DNA of 50,919 nt, counting the filler, from Basidioascus undulatus (taxonomy: Eukaryota), in the NCBI GenBank assembly GCA_000826855.1. It is 5 parts of 5 records of this genome, joined end to end, with 100 filler letters (N's around TTAATTAATTAA, not from the genome) between each part and the next. Parts side by side here need not be neighbours in the genome. Positions count along the whole stretch, not along the records: positions 1 to 22,301 come from JTLS01000299.1; 4 more parts are not named here. One strand, given 5' to 3'. A program made the translations under genes and the position numbers. Shown here in pieces: positions 1 through 28,718 of the stretch (positions are counted from its first letter, which is position 1; each line of letters opens with the position of its first letter). A model generated the notes under the pieces. That model searched no databases. It saw nothing but the letters and a program-made list of their open reading frames with translations, and was not told the DNA's origin.

Positions 1-2944
1 GGCCCCGAGGACAACAATGCCCGCTCGCCGTCGCTCGAACCGGGACCGCTCGCGCTGCAGCACCAGCCGCCGCCGCCGACGACTGGGGATCACATCGCCC
101 GCCCCGCGTCGCCGTTCCGCTTCGGTGCGGATGAGGGCGATGGGCCGCCGCGTCAGGGCTCCGAGGTAGACATGGATGCTGCCGCTCAGCCGCCGGTCGC
201 AGGGCAGTCTGCAAGGGCTCGCTTTGCCGCATCTGTACGTTTTGTCCGCCCATACGATATCCGACATTCTGTCTGCTAACGCTACATCCCTGTCGTCCAG
301 GCGTCGCCATCGTCCTCCCGCTCATCCACGCCTGTGCCCCAGGCCCGCATGAAGACTGCCCCCACGGGCCCGCCGCGCGGCCGCAAGAGCACGGGCGGCC
401 ACCCGCCGGGCGCTGCGAAGCCTTCGCAGCAGCCATGCGCTCGGAAGAGCACCGGAAACCGTCCTCCAGTCCCTATGGCTTCTAAAACGCGGCGGCTGCC
501 GAAGGACATCCTCAGCGACGTGCGTAGCTCCGCTGCCCAGATGGTTGGTCTTCCGTTGAGTGATACTGACCCGGGTGTGTGAGCATCGGTTTAGAAGGAT
601 GAGGTCGAGGGAGACGACGAAAGCAGCGAAGTGGAGATCCTCTCGCCCGGGCCGCGCCCATCTCGGCGCTTGTCCGCCTCGCTCGCGTCATCGCAAGACG
701 GGGTGCACCGCGCGCTCCGGTCCTCGGCCGGGCCGTCCCAGTCGCCTCTCTCGCCCGCGAGCACGCCCGCGCCCGAGCCGCCGATCACGGCGATTGCGAA
801 GCTCGAGCCGGGGCTGCCGGTGACGGACGAGGAGCGCGCCGAGGCGAACGCGATGTGGGCGCGCGCGGCAGTCGACCCAGATGTGGCTGAGGACGCAGGC
901 CAGCTCTCACTCCTCGACATGCTCTACAACCACCCGCGCCCCCAGGAGGCAAGGCGCGACTGGAGCAACCGCCTGCCGTTCCTCGGCTTGATAGACATGG
1001 CCGCGCATAACGCGGACTGGAAGAACCTCCCGACTTTTAAGCTCGAGAACAAGATCAACCCGGAGGAGGAGCCAACCCCGCCGATCGAGTTCTTGTACAC
1101 CAACAGGAACAAGGTGCGTCCTCCGTCCCGCAACCAAGGTCGCGCTGTGCACGCCCTGGGGCTGACCTCTCGTGCGGGGATGTGCACGGCGCGTGCAGCA
1201 CTGCGACGGCGTCCCGAAGCTCGACAGGCGACGACTGCGCGGGTGCTCGTGCGAAGACGACTGCTCGCCCGACTCGTGCGAGTGCGCCGCACGCCAGCGC
1301 GCGGCGTACGGGGACTTGTTCAACGGCGCCGGCTTCAGTGCGTGCATTCCTTTGACTGTAAGACCCAGGACAGACAGCTGACTCGTTCCTATCTTGCCTT
1401 GGGCGGGGAACCCACAGTCTACGACGATAACCGCCGGCTCCTTGTGCCGTATCACCCCATTTTCGAGTGCAACGACATGTGCGGCTGCGACGAGGACTGC
1501 CCGAACCGAGTGAGTCGAATTGGCAGTCGCTCGGTCCCTTCTCCCGCTGCATTGGTTGCGCGCCTCCTTGCTGAGAGCTTGTCTTCTGCGATTAGGTCGT
1601 CGGCCGCGGTCCATCGGGGGACTTCACAATCTTCCGTACCAGGCACAAGGGCTGGGGTGCATTGTCCTTCCCAGCTTAACCATGCTGTTACGAACGCTCA
1701 CGGGGTTTGCGATGCTAGGCGTCAAGACGAACAAGCCCATCAAGCGCGGGACGTTCGTCGGCAACTACGCCGGCGAGATCCTGACCAGGGAGGAAGCAGA
1801 AGAGCGCGGCGAGTACATCTCGATCCTCTCGTCCCTTCCTCGCCTGAACTCACCTTGCATCACCCCTATCTTCCCCCTTAAAGGATCTTCGACCTCGTCG
1901 GCAAGACGTACTTGTACGACATCGACTTCCACTTCCTGCGCCTGGCGCACAAGGCGCGCGTCAGCGCTCAGCCGGAGGCCGCCGGCCTCACCCCGGACGA
2001 GATTGACAAGAAGTTCAAGTTCACCCCCAAATACGGTGCGTCCGGGGTTGGCGCAATGGAGTAGTCCTCTGGAATGTCCTGACTGAGTCTGTGATTACGC
2101 TGCTGGCAGTCATAGACGCATACCACCGAGGCAACGTGAGTGGATTCTTGGTACGCATCAGTCTGCGGAGGCTTGAGCTGACTTCCCAGCTCCATTGTTC
2201 AGTTCACGCGGTTCATCGTACGATTCACTTACTTTCCCTCTCCTGGAAGCGTCCGCTGACTTGTTTGCTGCGTAGAACCACCACTGCAATCCGAACCTCT
2301 ACATCCAGGTGCGTCGCTTCTTTCTCTGCCGTCTATTTAGCTGCGCCGCTCAATCAGATCTCACTCTCCATTCAGGCCGTGTACGTCAACAACGACAACC
2401 CGGAGATCCCACTATTCGCGCTATTTGCTCGGCGCGACATCCAGAAGGGCGAGGAACTCACGTTCTCGTACGTGCATTTTAAATATCACTAGTTCCTTTT
2501 GGATTCAGAATAGGTATTGAAGAGCGGGCACTGCAGGTACCGCGGGGACGAGAGCGACGAGGAGGGGGCCGAAGACGAGGTAAGTGTATCACCTGCATGG
2601 CCGTTCTGCTCCGGAAAATAGCTGACTCTGGCGTGACGACCGTGCTCTCACAGTTCGGTCCCGCAAAGGGCAAGGGCAAAGGCAAGGGCAAGAAGAGCGA
2701 CAAGGGCGTCACGCCCGGCAACCACTCGCGGCGGGGGCGCACGAAGGTCAAGAGGGGCGCCCAGCCGGACGAGACGACGACGAGCAACATGTCTCAGCAG
2801 TGCATGTGCGGATACGCCAAGTGCCGGGGGACAATGTTCAAGGAGGAGGAGGTCTTGGGGAAGGAGGCTGAGGAGGAGGCCGAGGAGGCCGAGGAGGGAG
2901 GAGGAGGCCGAGAAGTGATAGCTAGCATGGACTTTAGGGCCTAG
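1..2944 (+). CDS. clr4: Histone H3K9 methyltransferase, Clr4/DIM-5/SUV39 family (5' end outside window; about 14 exons visible)
   Basis: Manual splicing at GT-AG introns (e.g. 235-300, 520-594, 1114-1198) keeps one frame. It yields a pre-SET Cys cluster (GCSCEDDCSPDSCEC...IFECNDMCGCDEDCPNR), SET motifs (KGWGV, GTFVGNYAGEI, TYLYDID, GN-FTRFI-NHHCNPN, GEELTFSY) and post-SET CMCGYAKCRG, with the stop at 2942-2944. Confidence 0.92.
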
Positions 2945-3219
2945 GGCATGCCCTTCCCGCCGTTCTTGGCCATTCTCTTCATCGTTTTGTGCCATATTGG
3001 CCCTTCTATAAGGATTGATGGCAATTTCCTGATCCAGGCTTTGAAAAAAAAAACCCCCTTTGGCGTGATGACTCGTTGGGCAGAACATATGGCTTTGGTG
3101 GCAGCGTAAGAGTTACGGCGACTGGTGCTACGTGCTGGTCAACAAGAATTGTATGCCTTGTGCAAAAATACGTTCCGCCGATCGCAGTGTACACTTAAGT
3201 AGGAAACGAGGAATCGAGT

Positions 3220-5616: not shown

Positions 5617-8436
5617 TGCGGCGCCAGGAGGGGAGGACGGTCGAGGTGTAGGAGGAGCCCTTCCTTCAACGCTTCAACGGAGCGTATCGATGCACGGGAG
5701 TCCAGGGCTGCTCGGGAGAGGGAGGAGAAGGGAGGGCTGAGGATATGGAAAACACGAGGAGGAGCTCCGGTCAAAGTAGGCCGAGGCGGGCGTATTGTGA
5801 TCGAGTGCTGGACCGCCGAAAGAGTCGTGCTCGCCGTTGGGATGATGAGGGCAAGAGAGAAGACGTCGAAGGCGATTGTAGGAGGGAAACGCGTTAGGAA
5901 GGGTGGGCGTGGGGGCCGCTGTGAGAACGGTGCCGGTGCGGACGAGGATGCGCAGCGAGAGCGGGCGAGCGCTCGGCTGCCTGTCGAACGTTGGGATGCC
6001 GGCAGCTCTGAGATCGCGCCCTGCTGCACTCCTCCTCCTCCTCCTGCCGGCCTATTTGTTTGCGCGTCCTGTCCTGCTTGTTGCGCCCACCGCGTACCCT
6101 ATTTCCTCCGAGAGTTACGGCGATACATCCGGCGGCCGCGCGTGGGCGGTGCAGGCGGTGGCACACTAGCGGCATCGGCAAGCAAGAAGCCTCGACTATG
6201 GCTGGCGGCGACACCGCAACCCTGGATGCCTCTTGCGCATTCTTGCCAACTTTCCGTGTGGACTATCCAGCCACGCCAAACTCTCAAACTTTCATCCAAT
6301 CCCATGGGCAGCAAGCTGCGCACACCGCTTTCAAGGATGTGGGATCGTCCCTTTCGAAATCGGCAGTGCCGCCCTTGGCAGGGAGAAGCGACTTCGAGTT
6401 GCCAACCATCACAGCCACGACTTTCATGGCCGTATCCGAACACTTCCGAGCGCTTTTCGACCTCGCGATGCTCAGTTCCTGGTCGATTTGCGCACGCGAG
6501 AGCAACGTGCACTAATGAAAGAAGCTTCAAGGCCCCCTCTCGTGGCAAATAACGTTTCCCTCTTGCCGTCTTGAGCCTTCTTGTAGCGTTGGGCTTGTCC
6601 GCCATTCAATCATGCCCACGTCCGTTGGGATTCAATGGCGCAAATAGCAATACGATGAGTTCTTGTTGCTGACCTTGATGGCTGGGTGTTCTTCAGCACA
6701 CGAGTGACGTGGTCAAAACCCTTTGCCTGACAATTGACATCCTAGACCCGATGCAGTTTCATCGTTGTGTCTGTTGGCTAGCATTGCGCATGAGCCCTTG
6801 CCTCGGCTCTTTGCGGAAAGTACACAAACTGTTAATACTAACAGATCTTACATTCGCTCCGGGCCGGTGTTCGGCTCATCCTGGCCGAGCCTAAGCCAAC
6901 GCTAGTCTCCGCGCAACACATCCTCCTCGTGCACAGACTTGCACGGATTGCGCTCGTGTGCACCGCCTCTTATCACATTCTCAATCCTCCAATAACAGCT
7001 GGACTTTCTACACCAGCTTTCGGACGTACTTACACCTCTTAGCACATCAGCCTACCCCCGGTGTTGACGGTCCAGAGTTGTGTCGCAGCGATGCTCGCCC
7101 CATATGGCTTAATAAAATTGTCTCTCACACACGCCCATGCAGTCCATCAGCTTGCTGACCAGAACACATCCATCCCACCCTGTACCTTACGTAAGACCCA
7201 CCAGCTAGATTGCTACTGACTATAACTACGGCAGTGGAGGTCCAAAGGTTCGTTCACCCACCAGAGAGCTTTCAGCAGGCGAGCTCGGACTGCAGCTGCG
7301 CCGGCGCCTGCAACGAAACCTTCTTCGTCGAAAAGCACTGCCATCCGCGCCTGTCTGTGCGCGCGCCGCCTATGATATGCCTAATCATTCAACACGAAAC
7401 GACACTTTTTCTGGGCAGCAAGCGGACTTGACAAGTTGCGTACCCTTGGACGATCCTCACGCTCGCCGCGGAGGTCGTACCCTCGTTCACAACATCACAG
7501 ATCGGCAACGCCAGGGCGTGCCTGTGGGCGCAGCCTTGAGCCTTCGATAATATTGCTGCAGCTTGCGAGGGAGGTCCTGTCGATGCAGGTCACCAGAGTC
7601 GAAGGGTCTCTGTAGGTACCGGGCTGGGAGGATGCAGAGCTGCGTTGATCGCCGATGAGAATGAGCCGGGGAAAGGCGAGGCGGAAAGGCTGATCGAGTC
7701 TGAGAACCGACGTGTCGATGGGTTGTACATTTATGATGCCTGTGATCTCAACACAACGAAAAGGTGAATTTCGACAATAGTATGAGGACACGACATTCCA
7801 GCGGTTCAGTGCATGTGATGAAAAGATTGCGTCCACGCCGTTGCGGGTCGCAACCTGATCAGTCGGTCAAGATTCGATCGGCGGTTGTTGGAAAGCGTAG
7901 GAATCATCCCGGATTTTTTTTTCACTGTCGATCAAATCCTGTAGAAGATCGAATAGCAGAGGAAGCGTGCAATACCCGAAGTTTCTTAGTCTGCTGGGCA
8001 AACGGCCCGGTGTTGTCGGCCATCAACGTTACGGACAACCTTCTCTTGTTTGTGGCGTGAAGCCAAGATAAGAATTTTTCTAGGGTGAACTGTGGTTGGG
8101 GGGCTTCTTTTCTAGCCCGTTCCAGTCTGCACTTCTTGCGAACCTAGCGGAGTGTCGGACGGGCGAACGTTCAGTCGACAGTCTTTATTCCGTTCACCAG
8201 TTTGCCAGAAGTTCTGTTCAGCACAGGTGCACAGAGTCCGCGTACTACACTTGTTCCTCATTCACTGCGAGTATGTCCGGTGTTGAGGACCGCGACGTGG
8301 CGGTCTTGACGTTTTCAGCATGCATGTCTGTTGCCTCAAGGTCCGCACGATTCGTTCCACAACGAAATGTCCGCATGTATGAAAAATTCCTCGAAGAAAT
8401 ATCATAAAATACCCTGAAAAAGAACAACAACAGAGT

Positions 8437-22301: not shown

Positions 22302-22401
22302 NNNNNNNNNNNNNNNNNNNNNNNNNNNNNNNNNNNNNNNNNNNNTTAATTAATTAANNNNNNNNNNNNNNNNNNNNNNNNNNNNNNNNNNNNNNNNNNN
22401 N
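22302..22401. other. Artificial contig spacer (N44 + TTAATTAATTAA + N44)
   Basis: 100-nt block with stop codons in all six frames; identical to three other spacers in the window. Confidence 0.97.
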
Positions 22402-22681
22402 CACCTCCGCGCTCTTCACAGCAGCGAACCGCCGCTCCTCCGCGGCCGATCTCCTCGGCGCGGCGGGCGAGCTAAAAGCCGCGCCAGTCGAGGCACGCGT
22501 GCCAGTCCTCGTCATGCCCGCCCCCCAGAGGAGTGCGAGCAGGGCGAGCAGGCTTACCCTCCGCCGTAAGGCCACGCGCAAGACGCCTGCGGGGACGAGG
22601 AGCCTCGCGGTCCATCCAGAGGTCGCAAAGGATATGACCGAGGACGACTGGGCTACGCTGCTGGTGGAGCACTTCGGATGA
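22402..22681 (+). CDS. 3' fragment of an unidentified protein
   Basis: Open, GC3-rich frame from the contig edge to TGA at 22679-22681 (...EVAKDMTEDDWATLLVEHFG*). Confidence 0.45.
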
Positions 22682-23854
22682 AGAATTCGGGAAGAGTCGG
22701 GGACATATGGTAGGGATTTGGGCAATTGGGAAGAACTGTGGACTGTGTTCGTCGACGGCGTGAGAGGAGCGATGCTAGTGCGCATGGGGGCTACGTAGTA
22801 GCGCTGAAAGTGGCTCGCATGGGCGATGCTCCGACATTTCTACAATTGCCCCGTTTGTTTATTGTTTGTTAATGTATCATCCGTCAATGCAACCTCTGCC
22901 GCCGTTTCGCATTCTCTAAGTTCTCAAGGCGACCAGAGTGCTGTATAGGATGTGCTGGACTTGACACTCGTCTCGGCCGTTTCCACATGCTCCCTTCGAT
23001 AAAACATTTTGAATCCCAAAATATAATATTTTATTCGATCGAGTGCGCCGTCTTCGGCTTTGCACTGCTGATTTTTACCCACTTGGGTTCATTCAGCAAG
23101 CCCGTGCTTGGCATGCAGTTTTCCGGGTTTCCATCGGGCGTCCAGTCTAGGATTCCTGGGTTCAATGGGAATGCGAACTGGATGTGATATGAGTCTTGTG
23201 TTCTCTTATGGCAATGTCATTAGCGCTCTTCAAGCCCCGGCATTCGTGCCTCGGACGTTCGCCTCGGACGTTCGTGTACACTTCTGGCTCTTTGTTCTCT
23301 CCCGATATCTCTCCACCATCATCACATCGTTTCTCTTTTCCAGTCGTCCGACCGCTTTTCATGTCTGAACCAGCCGTGGACGATTTTCAATCGCGACAAG
23401 TGCGGTTCTGGCCGCTTCCCCTCGCAGCTCCTACCCTTTTTCGCCTTATGGTGATATGTACGTCTTGTCAATATTAGAAGGAAATACGATCGAGGATAGT
23501 CGATAGGGTCTGAATGGCATTCCTTCAATCACCCCACAGCGAATGCACCGCCCTCTATGCGGACCTGACGCCCCCCCAAGCGACCCTCACCTTCACCTCG
23601 TCCATCTCCGCCTCCGCTGCCCTGCGTACCCTCAACCGCACACAGTTCTGGAAATGCCCAGTCAACGTCTCCCCGCCGCCTACGTCCCGCCCGCCAACTT
23701 CGTCTCCACCCCGGACCCGTCGCCGCTCGAGGCGGGCGAGCACCGCTCCCCCAAGCGGCCCAAACACCAAAGAAGAAGCAGCCGCATCAACCGCCCCATC
23801 CCTCCCTACCCAAAAAGCCTCGCCTTACCGCAGAGCCCGCCGCCGCTGCTCTGC

Positions 23855-23900
23855 CTCCTCCGCCTCCTCCGCCTCCTCCGCCTCCTCCGCCTCCTCCGCC
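23855..23900. repeat. 9-bp microsatellite (CTCCTCCGC) x about 5
   Basis: Directly visible; the coding status of the surrounding ORF 23543-24094 is unclear. Confidence 0.8.
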
Positions 23901-24409
23901 TAGGGGCCCTGCCGCCGTCCGCCTTCAGATCGCACGCGGGATGCCCCCCGCCGGCCAGCGGCGCCAATATCTTCAAGGGGGGAAGTCCAAAGTGTCCGTC
24001 CTGGGGGGGGCGCGTGGGTTCCGGAGCAGGAGAGGGACAGGGCTGGCCCTGCAGGTCCGCCAGTCCTGAAGCGGAGGAGGTCCGATCCGCCTGAACCGGA
24101 TTACGGTTGGGTCGCAGCGCCGCCGGAGGCGGAGGAAGAGGAACCTCCTCGTCCCTCTCAACCCTCTCTTCCCCGCCCATCTTAACCCGACCGCCAACCC
24201 GATCTCGACCCCGACCCTTGTGCGACAGCTGCCGCCTCACTTCTCTCTAACCTTGTGCTTCCCCCTCTTCCTACACCTGTCGAGTCCCCCTACCCTGCAC
24301 CAACACCCACGCCCACACCATTGCCACCCCCATCAGCGAAAGCCCCGTCTCCCTCGCTCCCCTCCACAGCGCGCTCCAGTCCGCTGCGTCCGCCTCGGGC
24401 GGAGCGTTC

Positions 24410-24509
24410 NNNNNNNNNNNNNNNNNNNNNNNNNNNNNNNNNNNNNNNNNNNNTTAATTAATTAANNNNNNNNNNNNNNNNNNNNNNNNNNNNNNNNNNN
24501 NNNNNNNNN
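24410..24509. other. Artificial contig spacer
   Basis: N44-TTAATTAATTAA-N44. Confidence 0.97.
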
Positions 24510-24610
24510 ATCTTCCTGCGGTCACCCTCACCCATACTCTGCTTCATCTTCCTTACCACGTGCATACCCGATTCATCTGCATCTGCTAACACACTTCCCC
24601 TCACGCACAG

Positions 24611-24888
24611 CCGACCTCCTCCAAGACCTCCTCCACGACCAAGTCCCCCTCGCCCTCCGCGCCCTCCGTGACTCGGTGCGTCTCCCTTCTCCTTGCACCC
24701 CGACCCCGCCCCCTTATCCGCATCCCTCCTCTCCTCCTCCTCTTCTTCCCTCCCTTTCCTCTCCCACTTCCCCGCTCTCCACCTTTCCCGGCACGCTGAC
24801 CCCTTCGGAACATAGCTTCGGCAACCTCGCGATCCCCCTCGTCGCCATCTCGGGGTACCTCATCTGGCGGTTCCTCTACGCCAACTGA
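24611..24888 (+). CDS. 3' end of a tail-anchored membrane protein (possibly cytochrome b5-like)
   Basis: Two exons give a Ser/Thr/Pro linker followed by the hydrophobic terminal helix FGNLAIPLVAISGYLIWRFLYAN*. The identity is inferred only from this tail architecture. Confidence 0.4.
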
Positions 24889-25320
24889 ACTGGCTCCTGA
24901 TAGGACGGAGGGGATTAGAAGGCGGTTGGTTGAGGTGTTGGATTGGGAGAAAGGGGAGCAGAAGGGAGGGTTGACGGTGAGGGGGTTGGGAGTTTCGGTC
25001 GTTTCATTCAAGTGTCTTTTTCGCAGTTGCTTTCTTTGTTTCGTGCATGGTTCATTCTTCATCGCTTTGAGGATGAGAACGATGTGCTAGCATGCTTGTC
25101 ATACAGGCAACACGTTGAAATACGTGCTGTACGAGTCGAGAAGCAGAATACTCGCGACGTGCATTCCTGTGCGATTCGCTCCATTTTCGCGCGTTTTCGA
25201 TCCTGCGTCACTGACTCCGCCCGGTGCGATCTTTTGAGTGTCTTCTCGTTTCGCCTGGGCTTGCCCCATTCACACATCTATCTGGCTTTCCGGCCACACA
25301 CCTCCAGCAGGCCATCCACG

Positions 25321-26515
25321 ATGCCAGCGCCTTCATTCCTACCGCTGCTCAGCTCCGCAGACGCCTCCATGGCGGAGCTCCTCCCCGCCCTCTCTCGCAT
25401 CGGGCCCATCCTCATCCCCTCCTCCCTTCTCGCCGCCGTCCAGCCGTCCCTCCCCCCGCGCACCAACTACCTCGTGCTCGCCTCCTCTGAGGACACCCCC
25501 GAGGCCGCCGCGGGCTGGCTGGACGCGGGTGCGTCGGCGGTCGTTGCCCCCGCGCAGCTCGTGCGCGAGCTCGGCATCCCGAGGGAGAAGGTCCTCCTTG
25601 ATGCCGGGGCGGAGGCGGAAGTACCGGAGGACGTGAAGAATCTAGTGAGCGGGGTGCTTGTCCGCGGGGATGCGGCGCGGGCGGAGGAGGTGCGCAAGAC
25701 GCTCGGCGGGAAGTACGACTACGTGTTCGTCCTTCCCCCCGAGGGGCAGCAGGCGACGGAGGAGCTCGTGCGGTCCACGCATGGGGAGACCGCCGCTTTG
25801 GTCGTCCCGACCTCGTCCCTCACCCTCTCCCCCTCCTCCACCGACAAGCTCTCCCTGACCTCCGCGTTCCTCGCGCCCCTCACGTCCGACCGCCCCGACG
25901 GGCTCTACCCGACGATCGTGTCCTCCTTCCCCGCCTCGGGGCGCTCGCTCGGGCTCGTCTACTCCTCGCGCGAGTCCATCGCCGAGTCGATCTCCTCCGG
26001 CCGCGGGGTGTACCAGAGCCGGAAGCACGGGCTGTGGCGCAAGGGCGAGACGTCGGGCGCGCACCAGGACGTGGTGTCCATCGCGGCGGACTGCGACTCG
26101 GACTGCCTCCTCTTCGAGGTCGTCCAGCACGGCACCGGCTTCTGCCACCTCGGCACGCCGACGTGCTTCGGCGGGCTCCGCGGGCTTGCCGCCCTCGAGG
26201 AGACGCTGGTCAGCCGCAAGGCCGCCGCGCCCCAGGGCAGCTACACCCGCAGGCTGTTTGAGGACGAGGCGCTCCTCAGGAGCAAGATCATGGAGGAGGC
26301 GGACGAGCTGTGCACCGCCCAGGCAAAGGAGGACGTCGCGTTCGAGGCGGCGGATCTGCTCTACTTTGCCCTCACCCGCTGCGTGTCGAAGGGCGTTAGC
26401 CTTGCGGATGTCGAGGCCGCCCTCGACAAGAAGGCCAAGAAGGTCACTCGCCGCCCGGGCAACGCTAAGCCCCAGTGGGCCGCTGCCGCGTCCAAGCAGC
26501 AGACGACTCCTCCCG
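25321..26515 (+). CDS. HIS4: Trifunctional histidine biosynthesis protein (PRA-CH and PRA-PH domains visible; dehydrogenase part lost at contig break)
   Basis: Cyclohydrolase motifs LGLVYSS, YQSRKHGLWRKGETSG, DCDSD and GFCH; pyrophosphatase motifs SYTRRLF, KIMEEADEL and EAADLLYF, followed by KVTRRPGNAK. Confidence 0.93.
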
Positions 26516-26615
26516 NNNNNNNNNNNNNNNNNNNNNNNNNNNNNNNNNNNNNNNNNNNNTTAATTAATTAANNNNNNNNNNNNNNNNNNNNNNNNNNNNN
26601 NNNNNNNNNNNNNNN
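26516..26615. other. Artificial contig spacer
   Basis: N44-TTAATTAATTAA-N44. Confidence 0.97.
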
Positions 26616-26862
26616 CTCCCCCGCCCCGCCGAACCCCCTGGGCGCGACCCGCCAGTTCATGTCCGACGCCTTCGCGCGCGCGCAGAACGACACGGGCGAG
26701 GTGTTGACCCCGCTCCTGTGCCTCGAGGTCGCGGAGCGGTGCTACCTTCCCGACCATGGCGTGTGGGGCCGCGAGCGCTACGCGCGCGCGTTCTGGGACG
26801 TCGTCAACTGGCGCGCTGTTGAAGAGGGGTTCGCGAAGGTTGTTGAGAGGCGGATGGCATAG
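26616..26862 (+). CDS. 3' end of an Fe/Mn-SOD-fold protein lacking metal ligands; likely mitoribosomal mS42/mS43 (Rsm26/Mrp1-like)
   Basis: PLLCLEVAERCYLPDHGVWGRERYARAFWDVVNW follows the SOD C-terminal pattern (PLL.lDvWEHAYy..Y...R..Y...fw..vNW), but the D and H ligands are replaced. Confidence 0.65.
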
Positions 26863-28284
26863 ACGCGAGTGGGAGGAGGAGAGAAGGGGGGCGATGAAGG
26901 GAAGTGGAAGGGGGGGTTGATGAGATTTCTTCTTGCACTGCTTCTTTCCGACGCTGGCTTGGCACGGGATGGGAAGTTGCTTCTTCTGTGAGCGTGCGAA
27001 ACTCAGAAGAGAAGGAGGCATGCTGCTGTGCACACCCTCCGAGATTTGGTCCTTCCCTGAGGCACACCCGATCAAGGCGGCAAGCAAATTGGTTCGCCTG
27101 AGCTTACTGAGGTCGTTCAGCGTAAAATCAAGTTTCACGGGATTCAGTTTTTAGGCTACTCGCACGTCGCTGGAAGAGCCTGAGGCACCCAGGGGAGATA
27201 ATACGGACGTGATCAGGATTCAGATTTTGCGAGAGCAAGGTCGGCCAGTCCCCTTGCGAAATGGGTATGTGAATCGGAGTATGAGTGGGACGGTCGGGAG
27301 GGTGGGTGAGGTAGAGTTGCTGCGCGGGTGCCAGAGCGGTGAAATGACAGGTTCGGTTGTGTCGGAAGACATCCATCATGGCACATGTTGATTCCGAGTC
27401 TGTTTGTGAGCTCCAGTTTCTAGGCTGCCCTGACGTACTGAGCTCAGGAAACGGTCAAGCTGAGCGAGATGGGGTCAGAGTGAAGGCAATCCATGCGAAA
27501 TGAACGCGTTCCCGACCTTGACAAAGGGAGGGTTTTGTGGGGGGGTTAATTAGGTTCTGTAATTTGTGCTATGCTTTTTTCAGTATTCATTGCCGTGATT
27601 GCCTATCGTTTCCTGTTTGGACTTTGCGTCAAAAGCGTTGCTCATTTCTTCTGATGGATGTCCTCCTCGTCTTCTTCCTGTAGTCCTTTTGACCTTTCTC
27701 CTTATGAGATGTCTCATTCAATGTGCGCTTGTACAAGTTCATGTATCTCTTAACGACCTCGATAAACACAACATATGTACAAAGCCCTTGAAAGAGAATG
27801 GAAGCAAGAACGGTTGCGTGCCAGAGACTCCTGGGCACATTGTGGTATCCACACTTGAATGAACCTGGACCTTCTTCCTTGCCGTGTTTTTCCTTGTAAG
27901 TGTGTTACCTAAGGGAGGGGTAACCTTCCCTGCGCCCGGAGTCAGGCTAGCCGCCGAACGGCTAACCTGACGCAGGCGCTGAAAGCGTGCGCCGTGGTCG
28001 AACACGCTCAGCTTCTTGTTTGTCTTTGTTGACTCCACTGCTCTGACCAGGTGTCATGATACCGCTTATGCAACATGTTCAAGATCCAGGTTTGCCCCGA
28101 GCACTTGTGTGCGAAGAGGATCTCGCACGGAAAGAACGGGCACAAGGTCGGGAACCGGCTCGCCGCGTAGGGATGTCTATGTGAGTGATGCACAAATGAA
28201 AAATTAAGCATATCCATGCGCTCACCGCTTTCTTCTCCTAAGCAACCAACCAATCGAATCCATGCACCTCCCTCCTCCACCGAC

Positions 28285-28601
28285 CTACCTCCCCTCTCCA
28301 ACCCCTCCACCACCCTCCGCGGCCTGCTGCTGCTCCTCCAACTCCCGCTTCTTCACCGCGACCCACCTCCGAATATTCGTCTCGCTGGGCAAGATCCCGC
28401 GGCTGCTGAGGTCCTCCCGCGCGCGCCGCCGGACCTCCGTCTCCGTCAAGCGCTGCTTGTGCTCAAAGTCGAGCAGGTGCGCGTCCGCGTTCGTCACGAG
28501 CCCCCAGATCGAGAAGGACGAGACGAGGAAGGCTTTGCCTGCGAGCGTCTGGCGCCGGAACCAGGGGAAGCGCCAGTGGCAGAGAGAGCAGAAGGCGATG
28601 C
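28285..28601 (-). CDS. Last exon of a small mitochondrial membrane protein, Rcf2-N-terminal/Rcf3-like
   Basis: WRFPWFRRQTLAGKAFLVSSFSIWGLVTNADAHLLDFE resembles the Rcf2/Rcf3 pattern (TL..KAFLV.S......ad..l..fE) and is followed by a short charged tail and TAG. Confidence 0.5.
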
Positions 28602-28618
28602 CTGCGGGCAGGCGGGCG

Positions 28619-28718
28619 NNNNNNNNNNNNNNNNNNNNNNNNNNNNNNNNNNNNNNNNNNNNTTAATTAATTAANNNNNNNNNNNNNNNNNNNNNNNNNN
28701 NNNNNNNNNNNNNNNNNN
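28619..28718. other. Artificial contig spacer
   Basis: N44-TTAATTAATTAA-N44. Confidence 0.97.

What the first reader, a model, noticed from the sequence alone, without database searches (positions are those of the whole stretch)
340..465. H3K9 methyltransferase carries tandem histone-H3-tail mimics in its own N-terminus
Seen: exon 301-519 is in frame with the SET domain through phase-0 introns on both sides. It encodes ...QARMKTAPTGPPRG-RKSTGG-HPPGAAKPSQQPC-ARKSTGN-RPP. Histone H3 reads ARTKQT-ARKSTGG-KAP, so there are two 6-residue exact matches around K9 (Lys codons at 385-387 and 445-447) and a weaker ARxK-T-A echo of the H3 start. Established: H3K9 is the substrate of this enzyme family, and mammalian G9a/GLP automethylate ARK(S/T) mimics that recruit HP1. 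Inference: this fungal Clr4 may methylate itself to build HP1/Swi6 docking sites or a pseudo-substrate brake, possibly switched by phosphorylation of the S10-equivalent Ser. That would be a self-contained read-write or feedback module. I do not know of it being described for a fungal Clr4.
Basis: partly seen in the sequence, partly recalled or inferred. Interest (0 to 1): 0.75.

Follow-up and report, generated by a model that had tools for sequence, protein, structure and literature searches.

The report
Histone-tail mimics inside fungal Clr4
This fungus's heterochromatin-writing enzyme carries, in its own floppy arm, two short copies of the histone sequence it methylates, and some distantly related mushroom and yeast enzymes carry one too, so the enzyme probably marks itself as a docking site, though that has not been tested.

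Summary
Exon 301-519 lies in frame in a 14-exon pre-SET/SET/post-SET gene that groups with basidiomycete Clr4. It encodes RKSTGG (Lys 385-387) and ARKSTG (Lys 445-447), matching this genome's own H3 tail. The ARMKTA echo is not supported.

Scored against H3, 8 of 39 basidiomycete-type orthologues reach 28, against 0 of 182 other SUV39-family proteins. Carriers include Trichosporonales (4 of 4), Schizophyllum (two copies), Tulasnella and Mycena. Most Kwoniella and all 6 Cryptococcus lack it. The shared core, R8-G12, is what DIM-5 needs in a substrate.

Best reading (0.5): automethylated docking sites for HP1-type chromodomains, as shown for G9a/GLP and SetDB1, in a lineage reported to have lost the Clr4 chromodomain. 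A pseudo-substrate brake is the main rival (0.2).

Nothing functional is shown. No RNA run was listed, the gene's 5' end is missing, and HP1 was not found in the assembly. Seven literature searches found no report for a fungal Clr4. The scan holds analogous notes (fungal KMT6, an ascidian protein) but not this one. Verdict: new variant of a known mechanism.

The parts
1..234 (+). First visible coding exon (disordered region). The gene is cut at the contig start, so the 5' part is missing.
   Evidence: Window position 1 is base 1 of contig C2210 and no other contig overlaps it; open frame and donor GTACGT at 235
301..519 (+). Symmetric phase 0-0 exon (73 codons) holding both mimics
   Evidence: GC at third positions 0.78 in frame, against 0.38-0.62 in the flanking introns
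343..360 (+). ARMKTA 'echo' of the H3 start; judged chance
   Evidence: Wrong spacing to the lysine; no H3 match at these positions in orthologous sites
382..399 (+). H3K9 mimic copy 1, RKSTGG (K9-equivalent codon 385-387; G at -2)
439..456 (+). H3K9 mimic copy 2, ARKSTG (K9-equivalent codon 445-447), 20 residues after copy 1
   Evidence: of 8 residues shared by the two copies over 17 codons, 6 differ at the silent position
595..1113 (+). Exon 3: rest of the disordered region and lead-in to pre-SET
1199..1509 (+). Pre-SET Cys-rich region (exons 1199-1337, 1418-1509)
   Evidence: Only Pre-SET match in the genome; best PDB hits SUV39H2 and DIM-5
1596..2467 (+). SET domain over 7 exons (YLYDID, RFINHHCNPN, EELTFSY)
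2537..2800 (+). Acidic, then Lys/Arg-rich loop between SET and post-SET, at the position of the S. pombe autoregulatory loop
   Evidence: Sequence; loop position from PMC10135481 passages
2801..2944 (+). Post-SET CMCGYAKC, acidic tail and stop codon

Best explanation
The gene is the basidiomycete Clr4/KMT1 H3K9 methyltransferase, and the two RKSTG motifs are selected short linear mimics of H3K9 in its disordered N-terminal arm. Shown from sequence: the motif, its frame, its disorder context and its recurrence in orthologues. Inferred step 1: the enzyme's own SET domain methylates these lysines, because they are ideal substrates. Inferred step 2: methylated mimics bind H3K9me-reading chromodomains (HP1/Swi6 and/or Dnmt5). 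An HP1 dimer could then hold a marked nucleosome with one chromodomain and the writer with the other, giving indirect read-write spreading as shown for SetDB1. I put 0.85 on 'selected H3K9 mimic' and 0.5 on the docking mechanism.
For: H3 5-16 similarity score fixed beforehand: 9 of 40 N-termini (window plus 39) reach p<=0.007 against local shuffles; score >=28 in 8 of 39 basidiomycete-type proteins and 0 of 182 other SUV39-family proteins. A pattern written after seeing the data is in 10 of 35 named proteins, 0.36 expected, and in 4 of 6 metagenome agaricomycete-like loci with at least 2.3 kb upstream, 0 of 6 on the opposite strand. Positions outside that pattern also match H3: G13 10 of 17, K14 7 of 17, P16 10 of 17. 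The two window copies differ silently at 6 of 8 shared codons. In an orthologue model the motif lies in a stretch with pLDDT under 50. [quoted passage not shown] In S. pombe, making the autoregulatory loop fit the consensus raised automethylation and activity, so a perfect substrate makes a poor lasting brake. The Clr4 chromodomain is reported lost in the basidiomycete ancestor (PMC9963178), and Pfam finds none in the 9 mimic-bearing orthologues scanned. G9a/GLP and SetDB1 mimics dock HP1. A chromodomain-bearing Dnmt5-like gene is in this genome.
Against: No methylation or binding data. Patchy: by the a priori score, 1 of 13 Kwoniella, 0 of 6 Cryptococcus, 0 of 2 Naganishia, and Tremella, Naematelia, Dioszegia, Coprinopsis and Clathrus are negative, as are two ustilaginomycete-clade proteins. 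C. neoformans Clr4 has neither chromodomain nor clear mimic yet is that species' only H3K9 methyltransferase, so the mimic is not required. The position varies from about 94 to 748 codons before the reference point (genomic distances include introns). H3 Q5 and T6, on the side chromodomains read (recalled), are poorly kept (4 and 3 of 17), and window copy 1 has G at -2. By the a priori score (>=26) only 1 of 54 metagenome loci was positive. The Mycena paralogue has both a mimic and a weak chromodomain-like stretch (E 0.003). No HP1/Swi6 gene was identified in this assembly (capped, intron-blind searches). Whether the window protein lacks a chromodomain is unknown. Invariance among 9 Schizophyllum strains (0 of 20 motif columns variable, 111 of 1481 in the whole region) is too small a sample to count.
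Confidence: 0.5

Rival explanations
1. Pseudo-substrate brake: the unmethylated mimics occupy the enzyme's own peptide groove and compete with H3 until they are methylated or phosphorylated, so activity tracks SAM level or cell-cycle state.
For: The conserved part is the SET-groove side (R8-G12, extending to G13/K14/P16), not Q5-T6. S. pombe Clr4 is autoinhibited by its loop lysines and by basic residues in its disordered linker.
Against: The known S. pombe brake works with a poor-substrate sequence, and improving it relieves inhibition. SetDB1 mimic methylation does not change catalysis. The window protein also has a Lys-rich loop at the known autoregulatory position.
Confidence: 0.2
2. The mimic serves another H3-tail-handling protein independently of self-methylation: a kinase, demethylase, acetyltransferase or ubiquitin ligase site, or a dock for a reader of unmodified H3.
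For: Several orthologues extend the match to GGKAP, keeping a K14 equivalent in 7 of 17 sites; RKS fits an Aurora-type site (recalled).
Against: Neither window copy keeps the K14 equivalent (H and R there). The motif sits in the very enzyme whose substrate consensus it matches.
Confidence: 0.15
3. Neutral or incidental: basic Ser/Thr/Gly/Pro-rich disordered sequence that happens to spell RKSTG, at most part of a nuclear-import or nucleic-acid-binding patch.
For: Absent from most sampled orthologues, position not fixed; single DNA-level matches occur at background rate genome-wide; the Kwoniella pini copy is isolated among 13 Kwoniella and may be chance.
Against: Two copies in one exon (about 3e-8 by composition), silent divergence between them, 8 of 39 against 0 of 182, and H3 matches outside the search pattern.
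Confidence: 0.1
4. Exon 301-519 is skipped or is not part of the transcript, so the motifs are absent from all or some of the protein.
For: The exon is symmetric (phase 0-0, 219 nt) and could be skipped without a frameshift.
Against: Consensus splice signals on both sides, intron lengths in this gene's range, in-frame stops in both flanking introns, coding-like third-position GC, and orthologues carry the motif in annotated proteins.
Confidence: 0.05

Closest known systems
SetDB1 histone-mimic motifs (bioRxiv 10.1101/2025.01.21.634156: abstract, passages, one Results section read; 10.1101/2025.10.22.683908: abstract and Discussion read)
   Same: An H3K9 writer with two H3K9-like motifs in unstructured regions; there they are automethylated, bound by the HP1 chromodomain and needed for spreading in a writer that cannot read H3K9me3 itself.
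   Different: Different subfamily (bifurcated SET, Tudor, MBD; animals). Here a Clr4/SUV39H orthologue in fungi, a closer match to H3 (RKSTGG), patchy across species, function untested.
G9a K185/K239 and GLP K205 automethylation (review PMC9768651, passages read)
   Same: N-terminal H3K9 mimic in the methyltransferase itself; HP1 docking; blocked by Aurora B phosphorylation of the next residue.
   Different: Ankyrin-repeat EHMT subfamily with ARKT-M-type motifs (seen in 5 fetched EHMTs); the window protein does not group with them.
S. pombe Clr4 autoregulatory loop K455/K472 and disordered-linker autoinhibition (PMC10135481 and PMC7700585 passages; PMC12418378 abstract and one section)
   Same: Same enzyme family; self-methylation and intramolecular control by flexible basic segments.
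   Different: The loop lies between SET and post-SET and does not match the H3 consensus; S. pombe Clr4 reads H3K9me with its own chromodomain. The motifs here are N-terminal, exact H3 copies.
Cryptococcus neoformans Clr4 (PMC10135481 and bioRxiv 10.1101/149385, passages read)
   Same: Basidiomycete orthologue with a long disordered N-terminus and no chromodomain; Swi6 and Dnmt5 read its mark.
   Different: No significant H3 mimic (best score 21, p=0.23), which may be why the motif has gone unnoticed.

Membership tests
SUV39/Clr4/DIM-5 (KMT1) | Cys-rich pre-SET before the SET domain | tested here: met
   PF05033 over cut-off, only match in the genome; PDB hits SUV39H2, DIM-5, Clr4
SUV39/Clr4/DIM-5 (KMT1) | Intact SET motifs and post-SET CxCx4C | tested here: met
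   RFINHHCNPN, EELTFSY and CMCGYAKC in the 669-aa model; PF00856 matches
SUV39/Clr4/DIM-5 (KMT1) | Groups with Clr4 orthologues in a tree | tested here: met
   FastTree on 57 catalytic domains (2 of 59 dropped for lack of an anchor), 249 columns: clade with Ustilaginomycotina and Agaricomycotina Clr4, local support 0.935; position inside it unresolved, 0.058
SUV39/Clr4/DIM-5 (KMT1) | N-terminal chromodomain (ancestral; reported lost in Basidiomycota) | tested here: inconclusive
   None in the 669 aa present, but the 5' end is off the contig
SUV39/Clr4/DIM-5 (KMT1) | H3K9 methyltransferase activity | not testable with these tools
   Inferred from orthology only
Automethylated H3K9 histone-mimic motif (G9a/GLP, SetDB1 type) | ARK(S/T)-like match to H3 around K9 | tested here: met
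   Two 6-residue exact matches to the genome's own H3
Automethylated H3K9 histone-mimic motif (G9a/GLP, SetDB1 type) | Lies in an unstructured region | tested here: met
   No Pfam domain in exons 1-3; orthologue P0174 model has pLDDT under 50 over residues 253-270; the window protein itself was not folded
Automethylated H3K9 histone-mimic motif (G9a/GLP, SetDB1 type) | Kept across orthologues within divergent flanks | tested here: met
   Met in a subset only: 8 of 39 against 0 of 182; absent from most Tremellales
Automethylated H3K9 histone-mimic motif (G9a/GLP, SetDB1 type) | Lysine methylated by the enzyme itself | not testable with these tools
   Needs biochemistry
Automethylated H3K9 histone-mimic motif (G9a/GLP, SetDB1 type) | Methyl-dependent HP1 chromodomain binding | not testable with these tools
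   Needs biochemistry; no HP1 gene identified in this assembly
G9a/GLP (EHMT) subfamily | Ankyrin repeats and grouping with EHMT1/2 | tested here: not met
   No ankyrin match in exons 1-3; falls in the fungal Clr4 clade with EHMT as outgroup
SETDB1 subfamily | Bifurcated SET domain with a long insertion | tested here: not met
   The SET domain is contiguous and aligns collinearly with Kwoniella Clr4

The most novel reading that the evidence does not exclude
After losing the Clr4 chromodomain, basidiomycetes rebuilt read-write heterochromatin by writing H3K9me on the enzyme's own tail and letting HP1 dimers bridge it to marked nucleosomes. This would be convergent with SetDB1, with the mimic repeatedly moved, duplicated and lost along the disordered arm, making mimic number a tunable dial for heterochromatin spreading across fungi.
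Probability: 0.3. Interest if true: 0.8.

Novelty: new variant of a known kind. Interest (0 to 1): 0.62.

Why it matters
How chromodomain-less Clr4 enzymes spread and inherit H3K9 methylation is open; a review flags the long disordered N-terminus of basidiomycete Clr4 as unexplained (PMC10135481). The mimic gives specific lysines to mutate in tractable, harmless species, and would show that fungi reached the same writer-reader link as animal SetDB1 and G9a by another route. The best-studied basidiomycete, C. neoformans, lacks it, so it offers a natural comparison but also limits how general the mechanism can be.

Tried and rejected
RNA: no RNA holder listed for window 1-3000; no evidence either way.

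Complex prediction of an orthologue's catalytic domain with its mimic peptide (P0174): no verdict, score 0.01; not used as evidence. The AlphaFold model of P0174 showed no ordered docking of the motif and was used only for disorder.

Recovering the 5' exons: no overlapping contig. A chromodomain at the end of contig C677 (L049) has no sequence link and mixed codon bias (GC3 0.45 and 0.76), so it was not assigned.

Single-exon homologue searches found nothing, the exon-2 peptide had no PDB match, and both Atlas calls gave nothing usable. Chromo-shadow search of the genome rang nowhere, including controls.

Rejected: the ARMKTA echo. Rejected as real: gaps removing mimic lysines in 3 of 9 Schizophyllum models; the same three models also lack essential catalytic pieces, so these are most likely gene-prediction artefacts. 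Not pursued: SRKGKAR in Kwoniella as a degenerate mimic, since KGK-type patches are common in these regions. The a priori score misses the known G9a/GLP ARKT mimics (all under 28), so it tests only the STGG-type form.

Searches failed for machine reasons.

Full report
Observation. The window begins at base 1 of contig C2210, inside the gene, and no other contig overlaps it. A 14-exon model (1-234, 301-519, 595-1113, 1199-1337, 1418-1509, 1596-1656, 1719-1812, 1884-2035, 2110-2135, 2203-2217, 2276-2308, 2376-2467, 2537-2579, 2654-2944) has GT-AG introns of 58-86 nt and reads open for 669 residues through pre-SET, SET and post-SET (earlier versions). Exon 301-519 is flanked by phase-0 introns and encodes GRKSTGGHPP and CARKSTGNRPP, with Lys codons at 385-387 and 445-447. 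The genome's own H3 reads MARTKQTARKSTGGKAP, so both copies are 6-residue exact matches.

Chance. From composition, 0.00024 RKSTG is expected in the N-terminal 267 residues, about 3e-8 for two. The copies share 8 of 17 aligned residues, and 6 of those 8 codons differ silently, which points to protein-level constraint and away from a recent DNA duplication. A single match is not special at genome scale: 29 pattern hits against 29 for the control. Of the 16 that really read RKSTG, 7 are H3 genes, 1 is this exon and 8 look non-coding or intron-straddling by eye. The ARMKTA echo is wrongly spaced and has no counterpart in orthologues.

Identity of the gene. It is the only Pre-SET match in the genome. 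Exon searches hit SUV39H2, DIM-5 and Clr4 structures first. In a FastTree of 57 catalytic domains it falls in a clade with Agaricomycotina Clr4 and two proteins, one from the ustilaginomycete Sympodiomycopsis (support 0.935), outside both groups with no resolution. That fits a basidiomycete Clr4, possibly from the third subphylum (inference). The divergent Mycena paralogue fell just outside that clade.

Orthologues. Single exons found nothing. An exon profile gave 150 SUV39-family proteins, among them Kwoniella pini Clr4, whose catalytic domain retrieved 67 proteins, 39 of them basidiomycete-type (5 unnamed and probably truncated or unspliced). Against H3 residues 5-16, a score fixed beforehand, 9 of 40 N-termini (window plus 39) reached p<=0.007 in 1000 local shuffles: the window, three Cutaneotrichosporon, Vanrija, Schizophyllum, Mycena, Tulasnella sp. 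403 and K. pini. Scores of 28 or more occur in 8 of 39 and in 0 of 182 other proteins. The controls are imperfect: only 109 are 500 aa or longer, many are insects, two belong to the basidiomycete clade, and the known G9a/GLP ARKT mimics score under 28. Examples: MTARKSTGGKRP, MMARKSTGGKAP, KARKTGGGKAP, and two copies in Schizophyllum, VARKSAGGRLP and VARKSTGGKPP.

A pattern written after seeing these is in 10 of 35 named proteins (the 5 unnamed, all negative, left out), 0.36 expected. A metagenome scan gave 54 loci, 16 with agaricomycete best hits; 6 of these had at least 2.3 kb upstream, and 4 of the 6 carry the pattern on the coding strand in long frames, 0 of 6 on the other strand. Only 1 of the 54 passed the a priori score of 26. 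Over 17 sites, positions outside the pattern still match H3 on the C-terminal side (G13 10, K14 7, P16 10) but not upstream (Q5 4, T6 3).

Against generality: 12 of 13 Kwoniella, all 6 Cryptococcus, both Naganishia, Tremella, Naematelia, Dioszegia, Coprinopsis and Clathrus are negative, Tulasnella sp. 424 passes the pattern but not the score, and the motif's position varies widely. This is the behaviour of a short linear motif that is gained, moved and lost. Of 51 chromodomain-bearing control proteins none has the pattern before the catalytic domain (the one hit lies after it), but these are mostly related animals. Nine Schizophyllum strains add little.

Mechanism. DIM-5 needs only R8-G12 in vitro and is blocked by S10 phosphorylation (PMC3248561, abstract and passages). 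SUV39H enzymes read an RKST motif (PMC8303541, passages), and Clr4 prefers R-1, S+1, T+2 (PMC7700585, passages). Both window copies carry RKSTG exactly, so self-methylation is the natural first step (inference). What follows is less sure. I favour docking (0.5) over a brake (0.2): in S. pombe a loop mutated toward the consensus was methylated more and inhibited less, and the precedents with true mimics work by docking. Those are G9a/GLP, with an Aurora B switch (PMC9768651, passages), and SetDB1, where two automethylated mimics bind the HP1 chromodomain and are needed for spreading (bioRxiv 2025.01.21.634156, abstract, passages and one section; bioRxiv 2025.10.22.683908, abstract and Discussion).

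The evolutionary setting fits: the Clr4 chromodomain is reported lost in the basidiomycete ancestor (PMC9963178, passages; its supplement not read), and Pfam finds none in the 9 mimic-bearing orthologues scanned. In C. neoformans, Swi6 and the Dnmt5 chromodomain read H3K9me (bioRxiv 149385, passages). This genome has a Dnmt5-like gene with a chromodomain; HP1 was not identified in capped searches. Against simple replacement: C. neoformans lacks both chromodomain and mimic, the Mycena paralogue seems to have both, and the window gene's 5' end is unseen. The C-terminal bias of the conservation and the known autoinhibition by the S. pombe linker (PMC12418378, abstract and one section) keep the brake alive.

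Novelty. Automethylated H3K9 mimics in H3K9 writers are known, so the mechanism is not new. Seven searches (listings seen) and the passages read, including a fungal SET-domain survey (PMC9692433), showed no report for a fungal Clr4 or DIM-5 orthologue. The library lacks most subscription papers, and no supplements were read; preprint supplements are closed and could bear on this. The scan's own notes hold two analogous cases in other proteins and nothing for this genome or for the orthologue tried. Verdict: a real, selected feature and a new variant of a known kind, function inferred, interest 0.62.

Noticed in passing
L142 (G000:C13:3000-11433, minus strand), about locus positions 6500-7900: Dnmt5-like gene (chromodomain, DNA-methylase match below cut-off, SNF2-like exons by eye) with PAPRKSAAA and PATRKSAAG between the chromodomain and the methylase region; possible H3K9/K27-like motifs in a reader.
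   Followed up: partly
window 2537-2800: Loop between SET and post-SET is acidic then very Lys-rich (GPAKGKGKGKGKKSDKG), where S. pombe Clr4 has its automethylated autoregulatory loop; K. pini has a basic loop there too.
   Followed up: no
P0212 (Mycena metata), residues about 53-92 and 841: Divergent Clr4 paralogue with a weak chromodomain-like N-terminus, missed by Pfam, plus a mimic; could read its own mark.
   Followed up: partly
P0151 (unnamed, 1692 aa): PHD-finger plus pre-SET/SET protein with TTARKSAR and several GGKAP repeats that echo H3 12-16.
   Followed up: no
Tremellomycete Clr4 N-termini, e.g. P0174 about residue 323: A second short motif, GP(S/L/K/T)W(V/A)T or a close RP variant, recurs in the disordered region of 12 of the 34 proteins checked, about 60 residues after the mimic in Cutaneotrichosporon; possible partner-binding site.
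   Followed up: no
L133 (G000:C2808:11413-11429, minus strand): An H3-like gene with a canonical tail start that diverges after KQL (KQLETKGAK); possible H3 variant.
   Followed up: no
window 301-519: The mimic exon is symmetric (phase 0-0), so skipping it would give a mimic-free isoform.
   Followed up: no
window 22302-28718: Four N-runs with a TTAATTAATTAA linker are scaffold joins between contigs, not biology.
   Followed up: yes
L009/L049, L012, L016, L140: Several small intron-containing chromodomain genes, some at contig ends, of unclear nature.
   Followed up: partly
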